Origin: a virus
Lineage: Duplodnaviria; Heunggongvirae; Uroviricota; Caudoviricetes
Strand: one strand, 5' to 3'
DNA: 41,069 bases
Virus record (IMG/VR): IMGVR_UViG_2737471864_000010
Location: 1-41,069 of that record
The translations under genes were made by a program, and so were the position numbers. The notes under the pieces were generated by a model. That model was given only the letters and a program-made list of their open reading frames with translations, was not told the origin of the DNA and ran no database searches. Shown here piece after piece: positions 1,009-20,446 of this stretch (within the stretch, counting starts at the first letter, position 1; every line of letters begins with the position of its first letter).

Positions 1009-1083
1009 GTCCTCTTAGTTAAATGGATATAACGAGCCCCTCCTAAGGGCTAATTGCAGGTTCGATTCCTGCAGGGGACACCA
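1009..1083 (+). tRNA. argW: tRNA-Arg, anticodon CCU
   Basis: 75-nt sequence GTCCTCTTAGTTAAATGGATATAACGAGCCCCTCCTAAGGGCTAATTGCAGGTTCGATTCCTGCAGGGGACACCA with cloverleaf-compatible stems, anticodon loop CTCCTAA, T-loop GGTTCGATTCC and encoded CCA. Confidence 0.9.
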
Positions 1084-1244
1084 TTTATCAGTTCGCTCCC
1101 ATCCGTACCAGTCCGCAAAACCCCCTGAATATCAAGCCTTCTGTAGATGCACAGTTCGTAATGGTTCGCGTCAGATCGTTGACAGCCGCACTCCATGACG
1201 GGTAAAAAGTGGATAAAATAATTTTACCCACCGGATTTTTACCC

Positions 1245-2402
1245 ATGCTCACCGTTAAGCAGATTGAAGCAGCAAAGCCGAAAGAAAAACCATACCGCCT
1301 ACTCGATGGTAATGGCCTGTACCTTTATGTCCCTGTATCCGGAAAAAAGGTCTGGCAGCTTCGCTACAAGATTGACGGTAAGGAAAAAATACTGACCGTA
1401 GGAAAATATCCGCTTATGACTTTGCAGGAGGCAAGGGATAAAGCATGGACTGCGAGGAAAGACATCTCGGCTGGTATCGATCCGGTAAAAGCGAAAAAGA
1501 CTTCGTCTAACAACAATTCCTTTAGCGCCATTTACAAGGAATGGTACGAGCACAAGAAGCAAGTCTGGTCAGTAGGCTATGCGACTGAACTTGCAAAAAT
1601 GTTTGATGACGACATTTTACCCATCATCGGCGGTCTTGAGATTCAGGATATTGAGCCGATGCAACTGTTGGAAGTAATCCGCAGATTTGAAGATCGCGGT
1701 GCAATGGAGCGAGCCAACAAAGCACGCAGAAGATGCGGCGAGGTTTTCCGTTACGCTATTGTCACCGGCAGGGCTAAATATAACCCGGCACCTGACCTTG
1801 CAGACGCCATGAAAGGATACCGCAAGAAGAACTTCCCGTTTCTTCCAGCAGACCAGATCCCTGCATTCAACAAAGCACTGGCAACATTTTCAGGAAGTAT
1901 CGTATCGCTCATTGCGACCAAAGTTTTACGCTATACAGCCCTAAGAACGAAAGAGCTTCGTTCCATGCAATGGAAGAACGTCGATTTTGAAAACAGGATT
2001 ATCACCATCGACGCCAATGTGATGAAGGGACGCAAAATTCATGTGGTTCCTATGTCAGACCAGGTAGTTGAACTTCTCACTACGTTAAGCTCCATCACCA
2101 AACCAGTATCAGAGTTTGTTTTTGCCGGGCGAAACGATAAGAAGAAGCCAATCTGCGAGAATGCGGTATTGCTTGTGATCAAACAAATCGGCTATGAAGG
2201 TCTGGAAAGCGGTCACGGATTCAGGCATGAATTCAGCACGATTATGAACGAGCACGAATGGCCTGCTGACGCTATTGAAGTGCAACTGGCACATGCCAAC
2301 GGCGGATCTGTGCGCGGGATTTACAACCATGCTCAGTATCTCGATAAACGCAGAGAAATGATGCAGTGGTGGGCTGACTGGATTGATGAAAAGGTTGAGT
2401 GA
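1245..2402 (+). CDS. intS: Tyrosine recombinase / prophage integrase (P4-like family), 385 aa from the internal ATG
   Basis: Track ORF 1209..2402 begins at a GTG; the ATG at 1245 gives MLTVKQIEAAKPKEKPYRL..., the typical N-terminus of P4-like integrases, and a C-terminal catalytic region ending ...HAQYLDKRREMMQWWADWID. Position next to argW matches IntS of CPS-53-type prophages. Confidence 0.85.
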   Translation: MLTVKQIEAAKPKEKPYRLLDGNGLYLYVPVSGKKVWQLRYKIDGKEKILTVGKYPLMTLQEARDKAWTARKDISAGIDPVKAKKTSSNNNSFSAIYKEWYEHKKQVWSVGYATELAKMFDDDILPIIGGLEIQDIEPMQLLEVIRRFEDRGAMERANKARRRCGEVFRYAIVTGRAKYNPAPDLADAMKGYRKKNFPFLPADQIPAFNKALATFSGSIVSLIATKVLRYTALRTKELRSMQWKNVDFENRIITIDANVMKGRKIHVVPMSDQVVELLTTLSSITKPVSEFVFAGRNDKKKPICENAVLLVIKQIGYEGLESGHGFRHEFSTIMNEHEWPADAIEVQLAHANGGSVRGIYNHAQYLDKRREMMQWWADWIDEKVE

Positions 2403-2425
2403 TCCACCTGAACCATTATCGAAGA

Positions 2426-2475
2426 GCACAAAGCCTTGCAATCCAGTACAAAGCTTTGTGCGTCTTATGTTTATT
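2426..2475 (+). terminator. Candidate intrinsic terminator downstream of int
   Basis: 9-bp inverted repeat GCACAAAGC/GCTTTGTGC followed by a T-rich tract; the loop is long, so confidence is low. Confidence 0.35.
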
Positions 2476-2523
2476 GTTATGGTGTATTTATTTGTAATAC
2501 AAGAACCAAAATAATAAATATTA

Positions 2524-4359
2524 TCAATCAACCATTGATGGGAATGATGTTGCTATAGTAAGAACAGAACCTGAAGGAAATGATTGAATTGTAACATTTC
2601 CGTTAGCCGAAATATTGATCAGTGCTATAGCATTGTTTGTTCCACAAGGTATATAAGATATATCTTTTTCTGGCCTGAACCCTGAAGGAAGATTCATTAT
2701 AACCGTTCCAACAGAAGTTGCCCCTCCAGTTAAAACGCAATTTATATTTATAATACCATCCAGAGATTTTTGGTATGTCCCTTTCCTTGATTCTCCTATA
2801 ACCCATCCATTTTGTAACAGGCCAGATATTTCATATTGCTTACCACGCCACTGTGACCATGTGTTCTCACTTATCCTTCCTATGCGAGTAAAACACACTC
2901 TGCTACTTTCAGATATATATCCATATAATTTTTGCAACACTACTCCATCAACAAATCTATCGACCTGAATAACACCATCAAGAGGCCAAGAAGAATCATC
3001 AGGATTTGTTCTCCACCATGAAGTCCCCATATGAAACGTATTTGGTGGATATGAACTACCAACAAATTGCAAAGATGAACCATTGTTAGAAAATAAATTA
3101 GAACTTCCATTTACTACTTTGCATGGGCCATATATGTAATCAAGTAACTCATGGTGAATTTGGGCGCTAAAAACATAATTTGGATGAATTCCGCGACCAT
3201 CCACATATGGATTATCAAGCCAGTTACCTGCTGCGCCTCTGGAATCCTGCCACATACCGTAAGTGTCAAAAAACATGCACTTATATTGTTTAGCTTTAGC
3301 TCTAAGCACGGCTGTTAACTGTTCATACCATTTTTCATCACGTCCGTTTGGTGTGTCTGATGTTGAGTTTGGGGACATGATAATAATTGATTGCTGGGAA
3401 ACTGATTTGTTATTTCGTAACTTGGAAAGACCTCTATCTAATGCGTCTTTTACTTGATCCAATGTATAACCATAATATGGATCGTTAATTCCCCATCGTA
3501 AAACAATCAAATCAGCAGCAGAAAAAACAGACCATTCCCGATCAATATACCAATTACCCCATTCGTATAGAGTTTTACCTGAATGACCTAACGATGTATT
3601 TTTTACATCAATAATTCCATACCTTTTTGCATAAAAATCAGCGATAGTGGCTGGAGGCCATGACTCAGAGTTTACACCAACTATAGTGGAGTCTCCAGAC
3701 CATAAAATATATGTTTTTTTATCTGAAGTTACTCCGTCACCGTTAATAAGTTTATTTGTAACATAATTTAAATACTCTTGACCTATAACAAATCTATTCC
3801 TCGGATTTGTGTATGTTGATAACTGGACACCATCCCTATTAAAAACTCTTCCCCTTCTAGCATCGATTTCCACACCATAATCATTGTTAATAGAATCAAC
3901 AACCTCATCTTCATTAATTGTTAACACCGTCTGACCTGAGACGGATGAATTAATAGCGTCTTGTATTTTTGTTTCGATAGCGCCAGATCTTTTAATGTCT
4001 TTTTCAGCACGATAATATGCCTGATCTGGGTCATATTTTAACACATTCGGAAAATAGAACTGCTGTGCACCATATGCATCATAAACAGCCATAGAATGGC
4101 CTTGCACAGTTACGAACTTGGCAATCTGTCCGTTATATACCGGGTAACCAGCAGCGTTAATGATGATTGGTTGCGATACAGGAACGTGAGAGCCATCTTC
4201 GTTCTCCACATAAACCTGCACTTGATTCTGTGGGAGCGTAGGATCGGAATCTATCTTACCAATGAATATCTTGCCATTGCTTGCGGCCTGGAATTTTCTG
4301 GCTAACGTAAATAGTTGACTTGGCATTGAAATTATAACATTTGGCACAATATTTGACAT
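2524..4359 (-). CDS. Tailspike protein: P22-type N-terminal head-binding domain fused to an SGNH/GDSL-hydrolase-like (esterase) domain
   Basis: N-terminal ~110 aa (…NGKIFIGKIDSDPTLPQNQVQVYVENEDGSHV…VTVQGHSMAVYDAYG…NVLKYDPDQ) closely resembles the P22 gp9 head-binding domain; central region carries SGNH blocks WSGDSTIVG, RWGINDP and DGRGIHP. The 3' two-thirds is visibly AT-rich. Confidence 0.75.
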   Translation of the reverse strand: MSNIVPNVIISMPSQLFTLARKFQAASNGKIFIGKIDSDPTLPQNQVQVYVENEDGSHVPVSQPIIINAAGYPVYNGQIAKFVTVQGHSMAVYDAYGAQQFYFPNVLKYDPDQAYYRAEKDIKRSGAIETKIQDAINSSVSGQTVLTINEDEVVDSINNDYGVEIDARRGRVFNRDGVQLSTYTNPRNRFVIGQEYLNYVTNKLINGDGVTSDKKTYILWSGDSTIVGVNSESWPPATIADFYAKRYGIIDVKNTSLGHSGKTLYEWGNWYIDREWSVFSAADLIVLRWGINDPYYGYTLDQVKDALDRGLSKLRNNKSVSQQSIIIMSPNSTSDTPNGRDEKWYEQLTAVLRAKAKQYKCMFFDTYGMWQDSRGAAGNWLDNPYVDGRGIHPNYVFSAQIHHELLDYIYGPCKVVNGSSNLFSNNGSSLQFVGSSYPPNTFHMGTSWWRTNPDDSSWPLDGVIQVDRFVDGVVLQKLYGYISESSRVCFTRIGRISENTWSQWRGKQYEISGLLQNGWVIGESRKGTYQKSLDGIININCVLTGGATSVGTVIMNLPSGFRPEKDISYIPCGTNNAIALINISANGNVTIQSFPSGSVLTIATSFPSMVD

Positions 4360-4379
4360 AGTGAATCTCTATTTAAGGA

Positions 4380-4874
4380 ATGAATATGATTACTCATAAA
4401 GAATTAACCTCTTCACTCAACTACAACCCAGAAACAGGCGTCTTCACTTGGAAGATAGCTTCTGGTAGCTCCAGTATCGGAAAGGTTGCTGGATTTAAGA
4501 CGAACTCACAGGCCGACTACTTATCAATACGGATTAATGGAAAATCGTATCTTTGCCACCGACTTGCTTGGTTTTATATGAAAGGATGCTGGCCTAAAGG
4601 GTTAATTGACCATATTAACGGGGTTAAAAATGACAATAGAATTTCAAACCTAAGAGAAGTAACCAGAGGTCAGAATAAAACCAACAGCGTTTCATCATCC
4701 AATACAGGTATAAAAGGAGTTCATCTTCTTAAAGGGAAAAACACATATAAAGTTATGTTCAAACTAAAAGGTAAGTCTATTTTCCTTGGGTATACCGATG
4801 ATATTGAGCTGGCAGAATTAATGTCTATTGCATTCAGGGAAAAATATCATGGCGAGTTTGCTTGTTTTAGGTAA
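4380..4874 (+). CDS. HNH homing endonuclease with AP2-like DNA-binding domain (paralog 1 of 3)
   Basis: 164 aa; motifs NYNPETG, HRLAW, DHINGVKNDNRISNLR and C-terminal GIKGV…KYHGEF; AAGGA ribosome-binding site 7 nt upstream. Confidence 0.75.
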   Translation: MNMITHKELTSSLNYNPETGVFTWKIASGSSSIGKVAGFKTNSQADYLSIRINGKSYLCHRLAWFYMKGCWPKGLIDHINGVKNDNRISNLREVTRGQNKTNSVSSSNTGIKGVHLLKGKNTYKVMFKLKGKSIFLGYTDDIELAELMSIAFREKYHGEFACFR

Positions 4875-4907
4875 TGTCTGTCATTTAATTTGCTCCAGAT
4901 ACAAGGA

Positions 4908-5007
4908 ATCGCCGCAGCATGGCTACGGTTGGCGTTTGTTTGGTTTTTGAACTACGAAAATTTCGTAGTGCTATCCATCAAGGCCATCGCCGCAGCATGG
5001 CTACGGT
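4908..5007. repeat. Two copies of a 22-bp direct repeat (ATCGCCGCAGCATGGCTACGGT) flanking a perfect 19-bp palindrome (ACTACGAAAATTTCGTAGT)
   Basis: Direct reading; copies at about 4908-4929 and 4986-5007, palindrome at about 4951-4969. Confidence 0.6.
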
Positions 5008-5019
5008 GAATTTTTGGCA

Positions 5020-5044
5020 TAAAAAAACCCAGCCGAAGCTGGGT
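5020..5044 (-). terminator. Intrinsic terminator downstream of ant
   Basis: Minus strand reads GACCCAGC-TTCG-GCTGGG followed by TTTTTTT. Confidence 0.65.
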
Positions 5045-5062
5045 CATTGCGTTGGTTATCTG

Positions 5063-7040: not shown

Positions 7041-7460
7041 TTAGTGCTTGTATAGGTTGAACTCTCTATCAAGCCATATAACAAAAAATGTCGATCCAAG
7101 ACGATAACCAACCATGGCTTTCAAATCATCAAATCTAAAAGCCAAGAAATGATCTACGTCTTCCGTTATATGACTGGGGATACCTGCTTTAATTGCACCC
7201 CTTGCAATCTTCTCAAATCCAAGCTTATGCCTACCTTGCTGCTTAATATCTGCCCATGTTAGTTGACTTAATCTGTATAATTTATCAGCTAAGCCAGCTT
7301 TCTCATCTTTTTGGCATTTCGTTATGCAGTGAGAGCTTTGGATGTAACAGAATGAAAATTTCGGTTTCTTTTGATCTGAATTCCCCCCTGACTGCGGCCC
7401 TAACTTTAACTTACCTGTAGATTCAGCAGGGGGGATAATCCTTTTAGATTTTCTTGCCAT
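7041..7460 (-). CDS. Hypothetical protein, candidate toxin partner of the upstream Panacea-domain protein
   Basis: 139 aa from MARKSKRIIPP…; starts 4 nt after the upstream stop. C-terminus …GYRLGSTFFVIWLDREFNLYKH loosely recalls RelE/YoeB-type toxin C-termini. No confident family assignment. Confidence 0.4.
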   Translation of the reverse strand: MARKSKRIIPPAESTGKLKLGPQSGGNSDQKKPKFSFCYIQSSHCITKCQKDEKAGLADKLYRLSQLTWADIKQQGRHKLGFEKIARGAIKAGIPSHITEDVDHFLAFRFDDLKAMVGYRLGSTFFVIWLDREFNLYKH

Positions 7461-7464
7461 CTCG

Positions 7465-7914
7465 TTAGTTAATCCGAGTTGCAAAGTACTCTGCCATCTC
7501 CTTAGAACTAATTTCAGAACCACCAACACCCTCAATATAGTTTGATCTCCATGGTGACTCTTCGTGTGTCATGTTCCTCAGTTTCCAGGCAGAAAATTGC
7601 CCAAAAACATCCCAGACTTCTTCTAATAGCTCTAACTGTTCTTCGCTGAATTTTTCAGCATCAAAAGACTCTGGAGAAGGGATAGCACCATTACCATATT
7701 GTTTATAACGGTGATAAAGCTCAGGGACAACAGGGCCATGCATCCAAGCTTCCATCTTATTCTGAAAAAGAGGCTCGCCAAGCAACGCCAATGAAAAACC
7801 CTGAGCATAGTAAACAAGCTTTTGTAATTTTAAATTAGAGATTGCGTCACCGCTATCCTCGTCACACCGCGACAGGAAGTAGTCGGCGACATCAAAACAA
7901 GTAAGCATGAACAC
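7465..7914 (-). CDS. DUF4065 / Panacea-domain protein (COG3600, GepA-like), candidate antitoxin
   Basis: 149 aa with the characteristic NLKLQKLVYYAQGFSLALLGEPLF…EAWMHGPVVPELY block; GGAGGTG ribosome-binding site. Recognition from memory. Confidence 0.6.
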   Translation of the reverse strand: MFMLTCFDVADYFLSRCDEDSGDAISNLKLQKLVYYAQGFSLALLGEPLFQNKMEAWMHGPVVPELYHRYKQYGNGAIPSPESFDAEKFSEEQLELLEEVWDVFGQFSAWKLRNMTHEESPWRSNYIEGVGGSEISSKEMAEYFATRIN

Positions 7915-10641: not shown

Positions 10642-12089
10642 TCCACCGTAAATTGAATGCCTGATTTTGACGTGTAGCTACCTCCTGCTGATTGCTGAGT
10701 AGGCGGCTGTTGCATTGATGATTTCTTCCCTCCATTACCGACATTAACGTTATATTGCTGGTTGTAATTGTCGGTATATTGCTGAATGTCGCGCATTGAT
10801 TGTTGCAGCGCTTCAGGACTTGAGAAATCAGGCTTTGGCATACCCTGAAAATACCTATTGGCCTCTGCTTCGGTGTTGATGCCAGATGCCCCCATATCTC
10901 GGGCTGCTGCAATCCCCTGATTTTGCATTTTGCCCATGATTCGCTGTGCAGCGTTGTATAGCCTCCTCTGATCACCACCAGATGCACGGCTACGAATATC
11001 TGCACCAAGAGCAAAAGAACCTGAAGAACCTGTAATACCTGTCATGAAGCCAAGATCGTCAATTGATGCGCCAGAAATTGCATCAATATCTTTCTTCATT
11101 TCGTAATTCTGTGCATTAGCTGCCGATGTAGCCGGAGCAGCAATAGAACTGGCGGGGACGCGAATCATATTGCCCTCGTTGTCTATTCCTTCGTAGAACG
11201 CATTAGCACCAGCGCCGTGAAGCTTCCTACCAACCGTTACTGTTCTGCCATCTGCCAGTTGCACAACATTCTCCCCGCCAGCATCAGGACGGCCTCGAAC
11301 ACGAAGATATGTCTTTTGTTGCTCCGGAGACAGGCTGTTGAAATATTGATATTCTTTAACAGATGCAGGAACAGCACCTCCAGCAGTGCGCAGGGAGTTT
11401 TCACGGCTAACAGCAATGCTTTGCGCCTGTAAACCTTCCCCAGCTTTATTGCTGCGAATCGTCTCTGCCAACTTGCCACGCTCAATATCCCGCCCCTCCA
11501 TTCGATCTTTTATATCGAAGTACTTCTCATGACCGAGAGAAAATAGTGCCAGATTACCTGCGAAGTGCTGGAAGCCCTGCGGGTCATTAACCTGCATTTC
11601 AGCAATAGTTTCTGGAGGTATACCTAAACGACGCATCTCCTTTTCGTTATCCATCATGAACCTGCCAAATGCACCCGAGCCAAGCGACGAAGCTACCTGA
11701 GCCTTGAGCGCCAGATTGCCAAAATCATCCCGCTGGGCGTCATCGACATAGCCCATTCCTTTACGGACTTCCTCAAACTCTTCAGGGAATGCTGTAATAA
11801 GATTACGCATCTGCTCCCTGTCGCCGGACGCATAAGCATCTGCATAACCTTTCTGGAATGCAGCTTTACGCTCCTGCTGTTGCTGCTGCTTATAAATATC
11901 AGCAACTCCAGCCAGACCACGTAACGCGGTCAGACCAACGTTATTTACACCTGAGCGAGCCAGTTCATTGTTTTCGCGGATCAGGCCAAGCGTTGCATTA
12001 ATGTCTTTTGCCTTTGGCGCATTCTCGTTTTGCGCACCAATGCCAGCCAGAAAACCACCAGAATTAATACCCTGTTGCCACGTAGCCAT
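10638..12089 (-). CDS. Ejection protein, P22 gp20-like
   Basis: 483 aa; gene order and size. Confidence 0.65.
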
Positions 12090-12099
12090 TGATTACCCC

Positions 12100-12792
12100 T
12101 TAAAACAACGAGCCAAGCAGACCAAGACCAGCACCGATACCAGCACCCCACGGAGTTGATAGCTCGAGAGCACTGGCTATGCCACCACCCAAAAGCGCAC
12201 CGGATGCAGCACCACTAACCCCCTGCTGCAATGCTGACGGTCGGTTGGCGTTTGCCGCAGCCAGCGCCGCGCTTTGCTGTGAAATCTGACTCATGTTGTT
12301 GGCATATGTTTGCCCGGCGTTTGCCTGACCTTGCAGAGCACCAAGCCCAACGTTTGCCAGATTCTGGTAGTTGTTCATCTGACCAGACAGCCACTGCTGA
12401 CCAAGCGTTGGTGCGATTGTTGCTAACTGATTACCGGTTGCAGTGGAACCCAATCCACCTGTTGCTTCCGCTGCCGCCAGACTCTGATAGCGAGCCTGAC
12501 CAGCAAGATCTTTGTACTGCTGAGAGTTGTAATACTGGTTAAGTGCCTGACCTTGCCCTTCCAGAGACGATAAGTTCTCGAGGCTGCCGACATACTTATC
12601 AGCCAGAGGAGTAAACGGCTTCAGGTTGTTCATGATGGTGTTGAACTGCTGATTTTGCAGGTCTGCTGCATACTTCTGAGCTTCTGCTGCATACTTTGCG
12701 CTTTTATCAGAGCTGCCACCTTTCCCGCCTTTTTCAGGGCAATAAGGTTCCTCGCCGCGCAGTTTTCTGCCCAGCTTAAATGCATATAACAT
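12100..12792 (-). CDS. Ejection protein, P22 gp7-like
   Basis: 230 aa, Gln/Ala/Gly-rich with a hydrophobic C-terminus; gene order and size. Confidence 0.6.
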   Translation of the reverse strand: MLYAFKLGRKLRGEEPYCPEKGGKGGSSDKSAKYAAEAQKYAADLQNQQFNTIMNNLKPFTPLADKYVGSLENLSSLEGQGQALNQYYNSQQYKDLAGQARYQSLAAAEATGGLGSTATGNQLATIAPTLGQQWLSGQMNNYQNLANVGLGALQGQANAGQTYANNMSQISQQSAALAAANANRPSALQQGVSGAASGALLGGGIASALELSTPWGAGIGAGLGLLGSLF

Positions 12793-12794
12793 GG

Positions 12795-13250
12795 CTATCT
12801 CCCGTGATTCAGGAAGTCGATTAGTTCTTCGCGTGTGGCGCTGTAAAAAGTCACGTCATCCACGCCTTTAAAGTATTTCTTGATGGTTCCTACACGATTA
12901 AGGCCAATCATTGCGCAGTAAATCTGCCCGTGGCGGAATTTGCGTGCTGCGAACGATGTGACGCACTGAACGGTGGTGTTAGTCAGAATGTATCGCCAGA
13001 ACGCCAGCCCGATTTCCTTGCTGAAGCCGCGAATCTCTGACAGGAACATGGCGTGGCAATCGAATGTCAGCGGCTGAATCTCCTGATAGTAAACAATGCC
13101 GCCGAACTGCCCGTGCACGTTCACCTCAAAGTAACGGCAATCAGGTTTGTAGTCGTATCCATCACCGTTGTTGCTCCCGGCAATAATGTCAGGGTGATTT
13201 CCTACTGCTTCTATCAGGTCGATGTTTCGCGTTGGTTTGAATGTAATCAT
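12795..13250 (-). CDS. P22 gp14-like virion assembly protein
   Basis: 151 aa between the tail-needle and gp7-like genes. Confidence 0.5.
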   Translation of the reverse strand: MITFKPTRNIDLIEAVGNHPDIIAGSNNGDGYDYKPDCRYFEVNVHGQFGGIVYYQEIQPLTFDCHAMFLSEIRGFSKEIGLAFWRYILTNTTVQCVTSFAARKFRHGQIYCAMIGLNRVGTIKKYFKGVDDVTFYSATREELIDFLNHGR

Positions 13251-13888
13251 TAATCAATCAACCCATGTGCACGCAAGGCGTCTTCCAAAGCCTTAGTGCG
13301 CCGACGCTCAGCAATTAGAGCATTGGCTATAGTCTGGATTTCAGATTGCGTGTAAGTATCGCTAACGGTGAATGTCAGGTCAGCATTGAATACGCCTTTA
13401 TTCGCCGTACCTGTTGCCGCGGTCCATCCAGTCTGGCGAGCGCCAACAACTTTTGTACCGTTAACAGAATAACTTCCTGATACGTTAAGGGATGAGGCAA
13501 GAGTTTGAGTTCCTGCTCTGCTGAGTGAAACATAATCAACGATTATCTCTGATACCTTACCGTCGATATCCTGAACTTTTATTTTCAGACCATTAACATC
13601 ATTCTCTATTTCAAGAAGCTTTACTTTTATTCCTGAAATATCCTCTTCTGTTTTTGCAATTCTTTTTTCGTGCTCATCAAGAATTACATCCTGCTCATCA
13701 TTTCTGACCTGCGCATCATAAGCACCGCCTCCTGCCTGATTTGCCTTTTCTGCAATGGAGCCAACATCAGTACCCTGATTTATGACATACAGAAGGTAAG
13801 ACTGACTGAATATGTTGCGAGGGAGAATAGATGCATCAATGCGTGTAGCCTGAACCACGACAGGCTTATTAAGTGACGGGTCTGCCAT
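13250..13888 (-). CDS. Tail needle protein (P22 gp26-like)
   Basis: 212 aa; N-terminus [27 protein letters not shown] and C-terminus …[33 protein letters not shown] closely match P22 gp26 as recalled. Confidence 0.85.
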
Positions 13889-13891
13889 ATT

Positions 13892-15310
13892 TTACTCCAG
13901 ACGAATTTGACACCCGGATAGTGTTACTGGTGACTTCGTGATAACGCGCAATTTGAAGCCGACATTTTTCCTGATGCGCCCGACTCGCTTCCACAAAACA
14001 CGTTTGTCGTAAACGAACGGTTCATTCTGTTCAATCATCTGCTCACGTCCGTAATTGATTCCGTCAGTGGTTGCAGAGAGGAACAGGCGGTCGGCGTACT
14101 GCGCAACACCAGTTGAAGATTCAACCTCAAGGTCGAACACTCTTGCGTTATCCGCTTTGAACAGCGGAGTAAACAGCAGATGTTCCTGTTGCTTGTCGTA
14201 CTGGCTGCTGATATCGAATTGCAATTTCCCGGTAACAGATTCCAGCTTATCGCCACACGTTATCTGATTGCCTTCGTAAATGAAGTCGATAGCGCGGTAC
14301 ACATCGTCATACAAGCCAGTTTTCAACACACACCATTGCGGACCATTGGCGCTTGAAGATGCGTCGTACACGAGGACGTGGCGCGGAAGGTGGATAATCA
14401 GCAACTCATGAGCATCAAACCGCAGCGATTCCATCACACCATCAGCCAGTTCATCAGCAGTGTAGGAGCGGAGAATTTTCTCAATGCTCGCGCTGGCGAT
14501 TGGTGACACCTGACCGGAGCCGATGATATATACAGACGGCGCACCTGTTGCCGGATTGCTGATGAAAGCATAGGAATCAGCGAATGGCGTTTTGCAGTAA
14601 GTCCCGGCGATACCTTTTTGCACCATCAGTGATGGCTGTGCGACATACAAAGCAGCACCAACGGTGGTTGCGCCAGTCAGGGAGAAATATTCAATCGTCG
14701 ATGAACCAAAGCAGACGATGAAGTCTCGCCATGTTCCGATGCCGATGATGCCGTCAGGCTGCGATTCTGCGCGATATTGTGCGCTGTATCGGTCAGGATG
14801 TGATTCGTCTTCAAGGTCAGTGATAAACCATGAATCAGTACCGTCTTTTGACCACGCATAACGCCCACGTAAGCGCGTAATGTCGCGAACTGAACCTAAC
14901 TCATACTGCGTGAATCCGCTGTCCGTAGGCCAGTTTGAGACGGTTTTAACCGTGCCATCATAGCGATACTCGACCAGTTGACCATTAACGCCTACCGCCT
15001 GTGATGTCCGACCATGCGCCATTGATACGCGACCACTTCCGGCAACATCACCGACCTCGCTTTCGCCCTTATACAACTTGCCACCGCAAACGCGATAAAC
15101 AGCATTCTGCGCCATGTTGTACTCGACACCGCGCGATACACCATTCACATCAGAACGTTTGGCAATGCCCGGGAATGAGCGAAGATATCCGCTGCTGTTG
15201 AGTATTTCTTTGGGTGTAGCCAACATATTCGCTGGCAGATAGTCGATATAGTCGGCGTTTCTGAAATCTTTGCCGACACCTTTCATAAGCGGAAGTTGCT
15301 GAATAGGCAT
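13892..15310 (-). CDS. Tail accessory / head completion protein (P22 gp10-like)
   Basis: 472 aa, same length as P22 gp10, in the conserved position. Confidence 0.75.
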   Translation of the reverse strand: MPIQQLPLMKGVGKDFRNADYIDYLPANMLATPKEILNSSGYLRSFPGIAKRSDVNGVSRGVEYNMAQNAVYRVCGGKLYKGESEVGDVAGSGRVSMAHGRTSQAVGVNGQLVEYRYDGTVKTVSNWPTDSGFTQYELGSVRDITRLRGRYAWSKDGTDSWFITDLEDESHPDRYSAQYRAESQPDGIIGIGTWRDFIVCFGSSTIEYFSLTGATTVGAALYVAQPSLMVQKGIAGTYCKTPFADSYAFISNPATGAPSVYIIGSGQVSPIASASIEKILRSYTADELADGVMESLRFDAHELLIIHLPRHVLVYDASSSANGPQWCVLKTGLYDDVYRAIDFIYEGNQITCGDKLESVTGKLQFDISSQYDKQQEHLLFTPLFKADNARVFDLEVESSTGVAQYADRLFLSATTDGINYGREQMIEQNEPFVYDKRVLWKRVGRIRKNVGFKLRVITKSPVTLSGCQIRLE

Positions 15311-15319
15311 TTATTCACC

Positions 15320-15781
15320 TCACGTACTCGGATCATCTTTCTCGATGTAAAACCGATTCCACGTAAACGCGCTTTTTAACCCCGCCCCGCGAGGCATGTC
15401 ATTTCGTCGCTCAAGTGGTGGTATTTTGGTTAAAGCGATACAGATTGTTTGATATGCACTGTCAGCAGCGGTAAGGAGAGCGTCTGACGGCTGAATGACG
15501 TTATCCATGCACACTTGCACAGCGAGCTTCAAAGCGACGCCATCATTTGCCCATGCAGGGATACCTGAATCATCGTCAGGCAACGGCATGATGCCGTTTT
15601 CTGTATCAGCAAACTGATACCCAAGCTCGATACCTTTCGCCTGCCATGCTGCCATCATGTCTTCGAGGTCATTAATGGCATCTTCAATTGCCTGAGGGTC
15701 GGCATCTGTCAACGTGGCATTGGAATACAGCCCGGCTTTTCGTAAAGCCTTAAGAACGAGATCACCCTTCGTTTTCGCCAT
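15320..15781 (-). CDS. Head completion / tail accessory protein (P22 gp4-like)
   Basis: 153 aa downstream of the coat gene; position and size. Confidence 0.55.
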   Translation of the reverse strand: MAKTKGDLVLKALRKAGLYSNATLTDADPQAIEDAINDLEDMMAAWQAKGIELGYQFADTENGIMPLPDDDSGIPAWANDGVALKLAVQVCMDNVIQPSDALLTAADSAYQTICIALTKIPPLERRNDMPRGAGLKSAFTWNRFYIEKDDPST

Positions 15782-15950
15782 CTTCTTCCGCCTTAGCCAC
15801 TTTTTGCTTCGTTGCGGTTTCTTCAGGAGTTTTTACCCAGCCTTTTTTCAGGTGAGATTTAACTTCTTCGTCATCAACAATGATGTAATCGACAGCAAAC
15901 TGACCACAGGTGATCATGTTGCCCGGCTTATAGAGCATTGTTCGTGCCAT
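15762..15950 (-). CDS. Small hypothetical protein after the coat-gene terminator
   Basis: Track ORF 15762..15986 trimmed to the internal ATG (MARTMLYKPG…) that follows a GGGAGA site and lies just downstream of the terminator hairpin. Confidence 0.3.
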   Translation of the reverse strand: MARTMLYKPGNMITCGQFAVDYIIVDDEEVKSHLKKGWVKTPEETATKQKVAKAEEDGENEG

Positions 15951-15961
15951 TGTCTTCTCCC

Positions 15962-15984
15962 AATAAAAATGGGGCCGAAGCCCC
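15962..15984 (-). terminator. Intrinsic terminator immediately downstream of the coat gene
   Basis: Minus strand GGGGC-TTCG-GCCCC followed by ATTTTTATT. Confidence 0.7.
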
Positions 15985-15991
15985 ACCTAAA

Positions 15992-17245
15992 TTACTGCCC
16001 GGCAATAACGATTCCCGTATATTCAGGAACAAGTACAGAGCAACCGTACAGAGTGGTGAAACGAGCAGTGGTTACGCCTTTGATGTGGTCGAAGGCGTAA
16101 GACATGATCAGCGTAGCGCCCTGCTCGGTGGTTGCTGTCATTACCTGTGGACCCTGACCAGTCGGGAACGCCAGTTTGCCGTACATCAGTTCAACAGAAC
16201 CATCAGCCCAGAACAGGTTAGCCGGTGCGGCATTTTTGTTGAGAATGGTAATTGCTGCACCATTTGCCGCGTTAGCATCAACGTTTGCATATGGACGGCT
16301 GGCGACATCCGCGTTGTCAGGCGGCAGAATTTTCGGGGAGATAGTTACTGTCGTTCCGCTAACTGCAAGAACGCGGAATACCTGCGGTTGCCCGGTGGTG
16401 TCTTTGGTGATCTGGTGTACGGAATTCACGCCAGCAATGGTGAACGCATCGCCAACCTGCAAACCAGATGCAGATACCGTAATAGTCCCCTGTCGGTTAT
16501 CCACTGGCATATCATTGTCATCTTTCGCTTCAACCTTGTGCGCAGGTTCAGCCGCCAGCGTCAGGGAAGTTGCTGTACCCTTCGGGACACGACCAGAAAT
16601 ATCGGTCTTGTAGCTATCGAAGGACGCGACAGGAGGGATTTGCGCTTTTTCGTATGCTGTCAGGGTTGCGCCCTGAGCATAGGCACGGTGACCAAGCTCG
16701 CCAGCAAGGTCTTTGTAGTTGAAGGGGTTCCAGAAAGAGCGACGGTTGATACCCTGAGGTACACCAATCGCCGTCATGGTGGCATCAATACCTGCCGCAC
16801 AGTTCCACAAATCACGGCCCTGTGAACCTGTGGTTGAGTCAGCCATCGTGATCACGTTAGTAGCACGCTGCGTAACCATGGAAATCAGGTCAGAGTCAAT
16901 CTGTGCAGCAAGGCGCATACCTGCGGCGCGACCAGCTTCAGTTTTATGTTCCGGGTCACGCATTTCACGCGCATCCAGAGTGTACAGAATGTTTTTCGGC
17001 TCCTTGAACACAGAAGGAACAAGGCGCTGAACCAGTGCTGTTGGCGTTTTGCCGCTGAGGTCTAGGCCTTCCTCAATGTTCATGTGGTAATGCTGCGGAC
17101 GATACAGAACATCACCTGCTCGCTGCATTGCTGTATCACCGGGACGGAATTTTTTAGCGTTACGGGAAACTACGCAGGCGGCCTCAAAGCCTTCAACGTA
17201 GTTTTCGAACATGATTTCAAGGTCTTTTGCTAATTGGTTAGCCAT
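15992..17245 (-). CDS. Major capsid (coat) protein, P22/Sf6 type
   Basis: 417 aa; blocks such as RPYANVDANAANGAAITILN and VFWADGSVELMYG parallel P22 gp5; follows the scaffold gene. Confidence 0.85.
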   Translation of the reverse strand: MANQLAKDLEIMFENYVEGFEAACVVSRNAKKFRPGDTAMQRAGDVLYRPQHYHMNIEEGLDLSGKTPTALVQRLVPSVFKEPKNILYTLDAREMRDPEHKTEAGRAAGMRLAAQIDSDLISMVTQRATNVITMADSTTGSQGRDLWNCAAGIDATMTAIGVPQGINRRSFWNPFNYKDLAGELGHRAYAQGATLTAYEKAQIPPVASFDSYKTDISGRVPKGTATSLTLAAEPAHKVEAKDDNDMPVDNRQGTITVSASGLQVGDAFTIAGVNSVHQITKDTTGQPQVFRVLAVSGTTVTISPKILPPDNADVASRPYANVDANAANGAAITILNKNAAPANLFWADGSVELMYGKLAFPTGQGPQVMTATTEQGATLIMSYAFDHIKGVTTARFTTLYGCSVLVPEYTGIVIAGQ

Positions 17246-17263
17246 GCTTAATGCTCCGATAGG

Positions 17264-18157
17264 TTATTTTTTTGCCTTTTTAGCGGCGAAATACGGCGTC
17301 CAGTCACCAGTTTCCAGCGCCTTGGCTTTCAGTTTGTCGAGGTTATTGATTACTGCGCCGTTGCTCCCCTTAACTGTCGGGGTTGTGGCTGCCGTGGTTT
17401 TTGCTTTTGGCATGATTCTGGCCTTCGATTCGATACGTTCCAGCAGACGACCAATTGCTACGGGGTTGGTAGCTTCTGCCAGTTGCTTGCGCAGTTCAGC
17501 GTTGCGACCGAGTGCCAGAACAACGATTTCCGGCTTCTCTGACTCAAACAGGATCGCGTTTTGTGTCTCGATGGGGATTTCCTCGAGTACGGCCTGCTCA
17601 GCTTCCTGATAGCCAGGAACTTTGAGAGCCTTAACACGTTGCTGATATTTGGATAATCGCTCTTGATAGGCAGCCTGAAGCTCCTGCTCCTTCTGCTTGC
17701 GAGCCATCTCCTGTTGCTGGTACTTGCCGTTATCCTCTGCCCACTTAGCCATGCGTTGCTGGTAGATTTCTTCATCGAAACCGATGTCCTCATCATCCAG
17801 TTTTGGCATTCGCGGTGGTTGAGTGATTACCGGCTGCTGCTCGACGGGTTTCTGAGACTGACGCATCAGCTCTTTCAGCTCGCGGTCTTTCTCTTTAATC
17901 GTCTTGCGCAGGTGTTTTACCAGTCCATGCTCTGCGCCATCTTCGCTGGTTGGCGAATCCAGCTTTTCGTCACCAAAGTAGAATTCCTGTTCTGATTCGT
18001 CGTCATCAGTTTCAGTATCTTCCTCTGCATCATTGCCGGAGGACTCACTGCCATCTTCTGTTTCGACTTCTTCAGCCCGTTCGACATCATCAGGAATCTG
18101 CTCTGACGCGTCGGTTTCGATTTCAACTTCTGGTGTGTTTTCTGCCATCTGGTCCAT
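17264..18157 (-). CDS. Scaffolding protein
   Basis: 297 aa, acidic N-terminus, helical Glu/Lys/Gln-rich middle, basic C-terminus; sits between portal and coat genes. Confidence 0.75.
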   Translation of the reverse strand: MDQMAENTPEVEIETDASEQIPDDVERAEEVETEDGSESSGNDAEEDTETDDDESEQEFYFGDEKLDSPTSEDGAEHGLVKHLRKTIKEKDRELKELMRQSQKPVEQQPVITQPPRMPKLDDEDIGFDEEIYQQRMAKWAEDNGKYQQQEMARKQKEQELQAAYQERLSKYQQRVKALKVPGYQEAEQAVLEEIPIETQNAILFESEKPEIVVLALGRNAELRKQLAEATNPVAIGRLLERIESKARIMPKAKTTAATTPTVKGSNGAVINNLDKLKAKALETGDWTPYFAAKKAKK

Positions 18158-18247
18158 TTGTTACCCCTGTTTACTCGATGTTCAGCCCATCGGAAGGCAA
18201 TAGGGTGCCAGGCCTCATAAAGACAGCCATTGCACGTTATGGGTTAA

Positions 18248-20446
18248 TTACTGCTGTGGTTGTTGCTGAGTTGATTTTTGCAGGATGCTGCTGATGTCCA
18301 TGCGCTGCGCATGGCCCTGTGCCTGACTTTTCAGGACAAGCTCTGCATCAGCACGGGCATTATCTCCTTGCTGTTGCTGGAACTGTCCGAGCAGTTTCAG
18401 AGCCTCGCGGATATCAGATTTCTGCTGACTATCGGCAGATGCGAGTATTTTCACAACATTTGCCGCTGCAACCTGAGCATCAGTCTGTGCCTGGAATGCT
18501 TTAACCTGAATGGCTGCCTGTTCGTTCTGCGCTTTCTGCAATTCAGCCTGACCAGCAAGAAGCTGACCTTGCGCAGCAACCATAGCCGGATCTGGCTGAC
18601 TGGCCTGTTGTTGTTTCGCCTGCTCAACCATTTGCTGCTCTTCTGGCGTTCTCGGCTTGATAACCCCAGACAGAAGCAACTGATTGCGGTTGTATTCTTT
18701 AAGGTCGCCCATCCCTTCGCCGTCCATATTGTCGAGAATCATCGACGATACAAGGTCGTGCTTCGGCGTTCCTGGTGGGATAAGTGCCAGCATGGAAAGT
18801 AACGACTTAACCGTTGCATCACGGCGAGTAGCGAACGACTGACCGACATCGACAGTCACTTCATAGTTACCCTGCGAAAGGTCGTTAAGCGCGATAACCC
18901 GCCCTGTCTGACGGTCAACCACTTCACCAGTCATCAGCGCCACGTCATCGCTGCCGTCCTCATTAACGATGCGCATTGGCGTATCGCTGCCATAGACTTC
19001 ACGCGCCATAGAAAGCCACACGACGCCAGCGCGGCGCATGGATTTAGCCATGTTGTCCATGTAGATATAGGACTGCGTGTCCATCCGGTTAAAGATGCTA
19101 TCAACGGTATCGGTAGCGACGTTGCTCGGCATATTCTCAAGCTGCGACGCACCTGTAATTTGCTGAATAGCCGTTCCGGTGTACTGCAATAGCCCGGCAA
19201 GAGCAGGAGGCATTTGTGTCGGAGGTGTATAACTGCTGACCTGAGCCTGCGCAGTAATATCTCCGTTTTTGTTTTTCAGACTGACCATCGGCAGGAACGC
19301 CGGGCGCTTTTTGTTGCGCTCCGCCCAATGAGTGGCAAGAGGACCAGGAATCATGTCAACATCAACTACAGGAATGCCATCGCCGCCAGCCTGAGTGGCG
19401 TTATCTGCAATCATGGAAACCATCAGGTTCTCAAGACGCTGTGCATCCATCGCTTTTGCTGCGTGGCCTTCGATTCGCTCCTGATTATCAACAAATGATC
19501 GACGCCCATATACCGGGATGAGAGGAATATGTTCGCCCGGAATACGCTTCGGTTCTTCCAGCCATTCAGCGCCAGACAGAAGACCGCAATAAACGCGGCG
19601 CTTCTTCACCGTTCGCTCGCCAATCAGTTCGAATGCACCATCGGTCAGCTCGTCGACAATATCTTTGATTTGATCTTCATCATAGATTGCCGTTTCTCCG
19701 CTAACAGGGTTACGCCATGCTGTGAGCTTCACCTTCTCTATGCGAACTTCGTAGTAGCGTCCAACATAGATGGCATCAGGCGTTGACCAGTCATATTGAG
19801 TGCCAGTGTCATCACGAGAAAGGCTTGCCGCGATGGAATCAGGGTATTCAGCCTCGAACGCTTTAGGCGTCATGGAGAACATTTCCATAGCCCACATAGC
19901 ATCAGAGCGGTCATATTGCTTGCTGTCCTGATCGAAGAAGACGCATGTCGCTGGGTCGTAAACAGGAAGAAGGCTGATGCGTCGCTGCTCGTTACTCGGA
20001 TCCATTTCATCTTCGTAATCGGCACACATGCGGAAACAACCGAATCCGCCCGTTACAGCATCATCAAATGCGTTATCACACGCTTCGCCACCGGATGTTT
20101 CCTGATAGTCAGCGCGGAATTTGCCGTTCATCTTTTCGGCTAACGCTTCCGATGCCTTGTCGTCCTTCGGCCTGAATTTAACGCTGATGCGATTCTGTCG
20201 ATACTCTCCAATGATGCGATCACATTCGCGGGCAATCTTATTCAGTTCAAAGCGCGGGTAATGCTCAAACCTTCCTTCATCAAATGAGTAACCAGCGTTT
20301 GTGCTGCCTTCCCACTGTGCGCCGGATACCCGGACGAAACGTTGAGCCTCAATAATCTGCTCACGCATATCCTGCGTTGCCGACCAGGCATTATCAAAGT
20401 TGCACAGCACCTTGCGATGCCAGTCAGTCATCTTTTTTTCTGCCAT
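18248..20446 (-). CDS. Portal protein
   Basis: 732 aa directly downstream of the large terminase gene; Gln-rich C-terminal tail typical of P22-like portals. Confidence 0.85.
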   Translation of the reverse strand: MAEKKMTDWHRKVLCNFDNAWSATQDMREQIIEAQRFVRVSGAQWEGSTNAGYSFDEGRFEHYPRFELNKIARECDRIIGEYRQNRISVKFRPKDDKASEALAEKMNGKFRADYQETSGGEACDNAFDDAVTGGFGCFRMCADYEDEMDPSNEQRRISLLPVYDPATCVFFDQDSKQYDRSDAMWAMEMFSMTPKAFEAEYPDSIAASLSRDDTGTQYDWSTPDAIYVGRYYEVRIEKVKLTAWRNPVSGETAIYDEDQIKDIVDELTDGAFELIGERTVKKRRVYCGLLSGAEWLEEPKRIPGEHIPLIPVYGRRSFVDNQERIEGHAAKAMDAQRLENLMVSMIADNATQAGGDGIPVVDVDMIPGPLATHWAERNKKRPAFLPMVSLKNKNGDITAQAQVSSYTPPTQMPPALAGLLQYTGTAIQQITGASQLENMPSNVATDTVDSIFNRMDTQSYIYMDNMAKSMRRAGVVWLSMAREVYGSDTPMRIVNEDGSDDVALMTGEVVDRQTGRVIALNDLSQGNYEVTVDVGQSFATRRDATVKSLLSMLALIPPGTPKHDLVSSMILDNMDGEGMGDLKEYNRNQLLLSGVIKPRTPEEQQMVEQAKQQQASQPDPAMVAAQGQLLAGQAELQKAQNEQAAIQVKAFQAQTDAQVAAANVVKILASADSQQKSDIREALKLLGQFQQQQGDNARADAELVLKSQAQGHAQRMDISSILQKSTQQQPQQ

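What the first reader, a model, noticed from the sequence alone, without database searches (positions are those of the whole stretch)
2524..4359. Chimeric tailspike: P22-type head-binding domain fused to an SGNH esterase-like domain
The N-terminal ~110 residues match the conserved head-binding domain of P22-like tailspikes, but the receptor-binding body carries SGNH/GDSL hydrolase blocks (WSGDSTIVG, RWGINDP, DGRGIHP) instead of an endoglycosidase beta-helix. That points to a receptor-modifying deacetylase/esterase rather than a glycan-cleaving spike. No O-antigen conversion (gtr/oac) genes lie between int and the tailspike. The body of the gene is strongly AT-rich compared with the head-binding part, consistent with domain swapping.
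Basis: partly seen in the sequence, partly recalled or inferred. Interest (0 to 1): 0.6.

Follow-up and report, generated by a model that had tools for sequence, protein, structure and literature searches.

The report
P22-type tailspike with esterase body
This prophage gene encodes a phage tailspike in which the usual sugar-cutting body has been replaced by a predicted acetyl-removing (SGNH esterase) domain plus a small receptor-binding head; this is a real but fairly ordinary example of a module that many phages share.

The parts
2524..4359 (-). Tailspike gene, 611 codons plus stop
   Evidence: ORF list; Pfam PF09008 + PF13472; 99%-identical RefSeq cluster named 'phage tailspike protein'
4021..4359 (-). 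Residues 1-113: P22-type head-binding (virion-attachment) domain, ending in KYDPDQ
   Evidence: Pfam E 8.8e-65; Sf6/P22 tailspike structures; residues 48-113 identical to the CUS-3 tailspike, with homology stopping at Q113; other E. coli prophages share window 4021-4400 but carry a different body
3715..4020 (-). Residues 114-215: neck/linker domain (one helix and short strands, pLDDT about 70-77), already part of the mobile body
   Evidence: AF2 model; homologues with other N-terminal adaptors align from residue ~121 onward; 59% aa identity to the variant in the other prophage type
3136..3714 (-). Residues 216-408: SGNH/GDSL hydrolase domain (predicted O-acetyl esterase)
3688..3690 (-). Codon of Ser224, the block I (GDS) nucleophile
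   Evidence: Ser in 216 of 218 family members; aligns with GDS of solved SGNH enzymes
3184..3186 (-). Codon of His392 (block V); Arg389 occupies the canonical Asp position and Asp387 lies two residues further upstream
   Evidence: His in 218/218; Arg at His-3 in 165/218; Asp at His-5 in 164/218; alignment to Ape1 'DGVH'
2527..3135 (-). Residues 409-611: C-terminal beta-sandwich with the fold of phage receptor-binding heads
2403..2523 (.). 121-bp convergent intergenic spacer between integrase and tailspike; no room for conversion genes
   Evidence: ORF list
1009..2402 (+). tRNA-Arg(CCU) attachment site and IntS-type integrase: the left end of the prophage
   Evidence: ARAGORN; Pfam integrase domains; same layout annotated in E. 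coli genomes
12795..20446 (-). P22-like virion genes that give the head-binding domain its docking site: portal, scaffold, coat, gp4-type and gp10-type connector proteins, tail needle and a head-morphogenesis protein
   Evidence: PHROGs hits E 1e-68 to 1e-229

Best explanation
This is the tailspike of an apparently complete P22/Sf6-like prophage integrated at argW. Residues 1-113 anchor the spike (presumably a trimer) to the tail hub, as in P22. The usual beta-helix endoglycosidase has been replaced by a mobile cassette that starts just after DPDQ113. The cassette consists of a neck, an SGNH esterase domain and a distal receptor-binding head. I infer that the head binds an O-acetylated surface polysaccharide (O-antigen or another exopolysaccharide). 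I also infer that the SGNH domain, with Ser224 as nucleophile, His392 as base, and Gly258/Asn292 forming the oxyanion hole, removes acetyl groups without cutting the chain. Repeated binding and release would then carry the virion to the outer membrane, as shown for G7C gp63.1. Shown here: the domain architecture, the fold, conservation of the catalytic residues, the modular exchange and purifying selection. Inferred: esterase activity, the acetyl substrate, trimer formation, the division of labour between head and esterase, and the identity of the receptor.
Against: No member of this particular sequence family has been assayed, as far as the searches show. The canonical block V Asp is replaced by Arg, so the catalytic machinery is not textbook. 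There is no sequence homology to G7C gp63.1 (hhalign probability 0.6%). Near-identical spikes sit in lysogens with three different O-antigen clusters (O84, O45 and an unnamed type), and one of those clusters has no recognisable acetyltransferase. This fits poorly with a simple serotype-specific O-antigen receptor. The monomer model says nothing about trimer geometry.
Confidence: 0.7

Rival explanations
1. The SGNH domain is catalytically dead and serves only as a scaffold or carbohydrate-binding module. Adsorption relies entirely on the C-terminal head.
For: The canonical Asp of the DxxH motif is Arg389 in this protein and in 165 of 218 relatives.
Against: The nucleophile Ser, the oxyanion-hole Gly and Asn, and the His are kept in 94-100% of 218 diverged relatives, and dN/dS is 0.07. 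That pattern is what an active site shows. From my own knowledge, Ser-His dyad SGNH esterases exist, for example the Streptomyces scabies esterase and CE2 enzymes.
Confidence: 0.08
2. The domain is a lipase or another kind of esterase that acts on something other than O-acetyl groups of a polysaccharide, for example phospholipid, lipid A acyl chains or peptidoglycan O-acetyl, to help envelope penetration.
For: The structural neighbours include thioesterase/lysophospholipase TesA (TM 0.81) and lipases, and the closest sequence match, Ape1, acts on peptidoglycan.
Against: The domain sits between the virion anchor and a distal receptor-binding head on an external spike, far from the membrane at first contact. 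Every characterised phage-spike SGNH domain deacetylates surface polysaccharide (PMC10743462, PMC6989608, PMC13123978).
Confidence: 0.1
3. The gene is a decaying prophage remnant that is no longer used in virions.
For: In two of the three complete genomes that carry it, the prophage is damaged: IS insertion and a truncated DNA-transfer gene in MDR_56, and a partial integrase and pseudogenes in UTAK-1.
Against: In the window the ORF is intact and lies in a full P22-like virion module. The cluster at 90% identity has 270 member sequences. Purifying selection is strong.
Confidence: 0.05
4. The domain is an SGNH-fold acetyltransferase (like PatB/OatA) that modifies the receptor rather than de-modifying it.
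Confidence: 0.02

Closest known systems
Coliphage G7C tailspike gp63.1 (PDB 4QNL), an O-antigen deacetylase
   Different: No detectable sequence homology (hhalign probability 0.6%). G7C has the Tail_spike_N adaptor plus the G7C_GBD and G7C_C domains, none of which are found here. G7C is a lytic N4-like phage, whereas this is a temperate P22-like prophage. Here the SGNH domain is followed by a different, head-type domain.
P22 / Sf6 / HK620 / CUS-3 tailspikes (Lederbergvirus)
   Same: The N-terminal head-binding domain is 80-88% identical, and residues 48-113 are identical to CUS-3. The gene position next to int and the immI region is the same, and so is the swap point after DPDQ.
   Different: Those bodies are beta-helix endoglycosidases or an endosialidase. 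This one is SGNH plus head, with no beta-helix.
SGNH-domain receptor-binding proteins of Klebsiella and Acinetobacter prophages (PMC13123978, PMC12115436)
   Same: Temperate-phage RBPs that carry SGNH domains, reported as among the most prevalent enzymatic RBP domains. Two were shown to be esterases. They associate less strictly with capsule type, and similar proteins occur in hosts of different K-types. This parallels the three O-types seen here.
   Different: Different hosts and adaptors. I did not test sequence relationship to the proteins assayed in those papers.
Neisseria meningitidis Ape1 peptidoglycan O-acetylesterase (PDB 4K3U)
   Different: Ape1 has the canonical Asp-x-x-His motif, whereas here that Asp position is Arg. 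Ape1 is a periplasmic bacterial enzyme, not a virion protein.
Receptor-binding heads of Listeria phage PSA gp15, lactococcal phages TP901-1/p2/bIL170, and the Pa223 tail needle
   Different: Only 10-22% identity and no Pfam family match. In those phages the head follows a simple stalk, not an esterase.
SFP21A phage tail fibre gp09 (PDB 9LNA)
   Different: 14% identity, and not found by the family profile. I found no paper that describes it.

Membership tests
P22-like (Lederbergvirus) tailspike | N-terminal head-binding domain (PF09008) | tested here: met
   E 8.8e-65, full-length match 1-113; Sf6 and P22 structures
P22-like (Lederbergvirus) tailspike | Encoded in a P22-type virion module with gp4/gp10/needle docking partners, next to the immI region and int | tested here: met
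   PHROGs hits for portal, coat, scaffold, adaptor Ad3, Hc3 and needle; ant/arc/mnt and int
P22-like (Lederbergvirus) tailspike | Right-handed parallel beta-helix body with endoglycosidase activity | tested here: not met
P22-like (Lederbergvirus) tailspike | Homotrimer | not testable with these tools
   Only monomer prediction was available.
SGNH/GDSL hydrolase superfamily | SGNH alpha/beta fold, shown by structural match to solved SGNH hydrolases | tested here: met
SGNH/GDSL hydrolase superfamily | Block I Ser, block II Gly, block III Asn, block V His | tested here: met
   S224, G258, N292, H392, kept in 216, 204, 216 and 218 of 218 relatives
SGNH/GDSL hydrolase superfamily | Block V Asp three residues before His (D-x-x-H triad) | tested here: not met
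   That position is R389 (Arg in 165/218), and D387 lies at His-5.
SGNH/GDSL hydrolase superfamily | Esterase activity | not testable with these tools
   Needs an enzyme assay.
G7C gp63.1-type esterase tailspike | Sequence homology to gp63.1 and its G7C_GBD / G7C_C domains | tested here: not met
   hhalign probability 0.6%. PF21988 and PF22245 are present in gp63.1 and absent here.
G7C gp63.1-type esterase tailspike | O-deacetylation of the receptor polysaccharide is required for infection | not testable with these tools
   Experimental.
Phage receptor-binding head domain (PSA gp15 / lactococcal RBP type) | Beta-sandwich head fold at the distal C-terminus of the RBP | tested here: met
Phage receptor-binding head domain (PSA gp15 / lactococcal RBP type) | Saccharide binding | not testable with these tools
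   Experimental.

The most novel reading that the evidence does not exclude
The SGNH-plus-head cassette does not target a serotype-specific O-antigen. Instead it targets an acetylated surface glycan shared across O-serogroups (for example ECA, colanic acid or a common acetylated epitope). This would give P22-like and other temperate phages an O-type-independent way in, using a non-canonical Ser-His(-Arg/shifted Asp) active site. Supporting hints: near-identical spikes occur in O84, O45 and a third O-type. In addition, the only two complete E. coli genomes that carry the homologous spike of a second prophage type are two of the three that carry this one. Those two strains look related, so this is weak evidence.
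Probability: 0.2. Interest if true: 0.55.

Novelty: new member of a known kind. Interest (0 to 1): 0.3.

Why it matters
It adds a P22-type example to the growing list of phage spikes that strip acetyl groups from their receptor instead of cutting it. It also shows the same esterase-plus-head cassette moving between unrelated phage types in E. coli. For phage host-range prediction and engineering, it is a reminder that P22-like tailspikes cannot all be treated as serotype-specific glycanases. The Arg-for-Asp change in the active-site motif across most of the family, and the spread over different O-types, are two small points that can be tested directly.

Tried and rejected
Sequence searches of solved structures with the whole protein, the body profile and the SGNH domain alone found only generic SGNH enzymes, not G7C gp63.1 or 9LNA. 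hhalign of the family profile against G7C gp63.1 was negative, so I rejected membership of the G7C family.

The apparent 51% match to the CUS-3 endosialidase spike over residues 1-227 turned out to be real only up to residue 113. The rest is a gapped, meaningless extension.

The 53 Lactococcus phage hits match the SGNH part through 'neck passage structure' proteins at 27% identity. They do not match the head domain.

No isolated phage in the collection carries the full protein. The best body match is 33% identity, in Vibrio phage martha 12B12.

I tried to infer the receptor from the O-antigen clusters of the three complete-genome lysogens. They are different (O84, O45, unnamed), so no receptor could be assigned.

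No attR copy of the tRNA 3' end lies inside the window.

Several papers could not be read: the G7C paper, the epsilon15 preprint and Casjens & Grose 2016.

Full report
**Observation.**
- Pfam finds a full-length P22 Head_binding domain at residues 1-113 (E 8.8e-65). It also finds Lipase_GDSL_2 at residues 222-394 (E 3.7e-14, 54 bits against a gathering score of 32.9).
- The three quoted motifs are at residues 220, 288 and 387.
- Sequence matches to solved structures are confined to the N-terminus: Sf6 gp14 and the P22 tailspike.
- The gene converges on an IntS-type integrase (1209..2402) next to tRNA-Arg(CCU) and a formate/nitrite transporter gene that is annotated yfdC at the same position in E. 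coli genomes. This is the argW site.
- Only 121 bp separate the two stop codons, so there are indeed no conversion genes there.

**Composition.** The head-binding part has GC 41.9% and GC3 39.8%. The rest of the gene has GC 36.7% and GC3 24.5%. The virion genes of the same prophage have GC about 50% and GC3 about 52%.

**Structure.** I modelled residues 115-611 from a 51-sequence alignment (mean pLDDT 85.9).
- *SGNH domain.* It contains no beta-helix. Residues about 216-408 form an SGNH fold:
  - Foldseek gives TM 0.81 to TesA.
- *C-terminal domain.* I modelled residues 409-611 separately (pLDDT 90). This part is a beta-sandwich, and its best matches are all viral attachment heads:
  - then reovirus sigma1 and adenovirus knobs.
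- *Neck.* Residues 114-215 form a small, less confident neck.
- *Overall.* The body is therefore neck, then esterase, then head.

**Catalytic residues.** In 218 family members, Ser224 is kept in 216, Gly258 in 204 (Ala in the rest), Asn292 in 216 and His392 in all 218.
- There is one departure from the textbook motif. The residue three positions before the His aligns with the catalytic Asp of Ape1, and here it is Arg389. It is Arg in 165 of 218 members. An Asp (D387, 164 of 218) sits two residues further upstream.
- From my own knowledge, some SGNH esterases work with a Ser-His dyad.

**Mosaicism.**
- Residues 48-113 are identical to the CUS-3 endosialidase spike, and similarity stops dead at DPDQ113.
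- Other argW prophages share window 4021-4400 (the head-binding part plus the neighbouring HNH gene) at 93-97% identity but carry a different body.
- Three complete E. coli genomes share window 2400-4218 at 98.4-98.7% but have a different 5' end.
- Homologues of the body from residue ~121 onward follow other N-terminal adaptors: TSP1/gp66-type, T7-tail-fibre-type, tail-collar, Mtd and T4 gp36-type. Some also carry pectate-lyase-like stretches.
- Five of 217 relatives carry a P22 head-binding domain. Three of these are only about 30-35% identical in the body, which suggests the fusion arose more than once.
- A search of 1.84 billion cluster representatives gives 944 relatives, 257 of them at E<1e-30. 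Nearly all listed hits match to within about 25 residues of the protein's C-terminus.
- A 79%-identical body occurs in E. coli in a prophage with a T7-type portal, placed next to the lysis genes. From memory, that layout and N-terminus resemble epsilon15/phiV10.
- Against that copy, dN/dS is 0.07 for the SGNH domain (94% aa identity) and 0.14 for the head (74%). The neck is only 59% identical. The gene is under purifying selection, and the head diverges faster than the enzyme.

**Context.** The window holds a complete P22-like virion module: portal, scaffold, coat, gp4- and gp10-type connectors, needle and ejection proteins. It also holds an immI-type region with ant, arc and mnt. The head-binding domain therefore has its docking partners.

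**Mechanism.** The most likely reading (confidence about 0.7) is a virion spike that is anchored as in P22. Its distal head binds a surface polysaccharide, and its SGNH domain removes O-acetyl groups. This would allow repeated binding and release towards the outer membrane.
- This was shown experimentally for G7C gp63.1 and proposed as a general motor (PMC10743462).
- There are further precedents in PP99 gp55 (PMC6989608), Moo19/B2 (PMC11654681) and Klebsiella prophage SGNH fibres (PMC13123978).
- Activity, substrate and trimer state are inferred, not shown.

**Comparison and membership.** The protein works like G7C gp63.1 but is not a member of its family. Profile comparison finds no homology (probability 0.6%), and the G7C-specific domains are absent. 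It is a P22-type tailspike by anchor and context, but not by body. It belongs to the SGNH superfamily by fold and by three and a half of the four blocks.

**Receptor.** I tried to read the receptor from the lysogens.
- OkiPb01711 has an O84 cluster with a hexapeptide acetyltransferase gene.
- UTAK-1 has an O45 cluster with a CysE/WcaB-like acetyltransferase gene.
- MDR_56 has a rare unnamed cluster with rhamnose and fucose synthesis genes and no recognisable acetyltransferase. That cluster occurs in 7 of 5426 genomes.
- So a near-identical spike sits in three O-types.
- The variant from the other prophage type occurs in only two of 5426 complete genomes, and both also carry the P22-type spike.
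- That prophage sits at the same yfgI locus in both strains, and they share identical proteins there. They are probably related, so the co-occurrence is only weak evidence.
- Similar loose coupling of SGNH RBPs to capsule type has been reported in Klebsiella (PMC13123978, PMC12115436).

[quoted passage not shown] RefSeq already names this protein 'phage tailspike protein'. I found no paper that describes a P22-type head-binding domain fused to an SGNH body. No assayed member of this sequence family turned up either. I rate it a new member of a known kind, of modest interest. The two open points are the non-canonical active-site motif and the unknown, possibly serotype-independent, receptor.

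Noticed in passing
window 4217-4884: An HNH_3 endonuclease ORF (4380..4874, plus strand) lies 20 bp from the tailspike start codon and points the other way. Prophages without it (MDR_56) match the window up to 4216. After that, the first ~50 tailspike codons are only 58% identical at the DNA level. A 14-nt remnant of the usual tailspike start (ATGACAGACATTAC, 'MTDIT') survives at 4871-4884, just past the HNH gene. It looks as if the HNH gene arrived together with a replacement 5' end of the tailspike gene, which would fit homing with co-conversion.
   Followed up: partly
window 4908-4929 and 4986-5007: A perfect 22-nt direct repeat (ATCGCCGCAGCATGGCTACGGT) lies between the HNH gene and ant. 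In CUS-3 the equivalent ant-tailspike spacer is annotated as a 'boundary sequence'.
   Followed up: no
window 5026-5045 (minus strand): A terminator-like GC hairpin followed by a T-run lies just downstream of ant and upstream of the tailspike. The spike is therefore probably expressed by read-through of the late transcript.
   Followed up: no
window 7041-7914 (minus strand): A SocA/Panacea-domain ORF (7465..7914) is followed by an overlapping 164-aa ORF with no Pfam match (7041..7535). This is a candidate toxin-antitoxin pair in the moron region beside immI. A Panacea-domain protein followed by a hypothetical one is annotated at the equivalent place in OkiPb01711.
   Followed up: no
L015 8602-10596 (OkiPb01711) and L017 6602-8596 (UTAK-1): A 664-aa 'SGNH/GDSL hydrolase family protein' has a body 79% identical to this spike. 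It belongs to a second prophage type inserted next to yfgI. It occurs in only 2 of 5426 complete E. coli genomes, and both also carry the P22-type esterase spike.
   Followed up: partly
L008 (OkiPb01711), L011 (UTAK-1), L007 (MDR_56): The three complete-genome lysogens have different O-antigen clusters: O84, O45 and a rare unnamed cluster with rhamnose and fucose synthesis genes. The first two encode hexapeptide-type acetyltransferases, and the third has none recognisable.
   Followed up: partly
L010 (UTAK-1, 11667-13939): In UTAK-1 the same spike sits in a P22-like prophage near yedK, next to a truncated integrase, and not at argW. The prophage or its end has moved or been rearranged.
   Followed up: no
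window 3175-3201 (residues 387-395): Block V reads D-G-R-[A/G]-I-H-P across most of the family, with Arg where SGNH enzymes normally have the triad Asp.
   Followed up: partly
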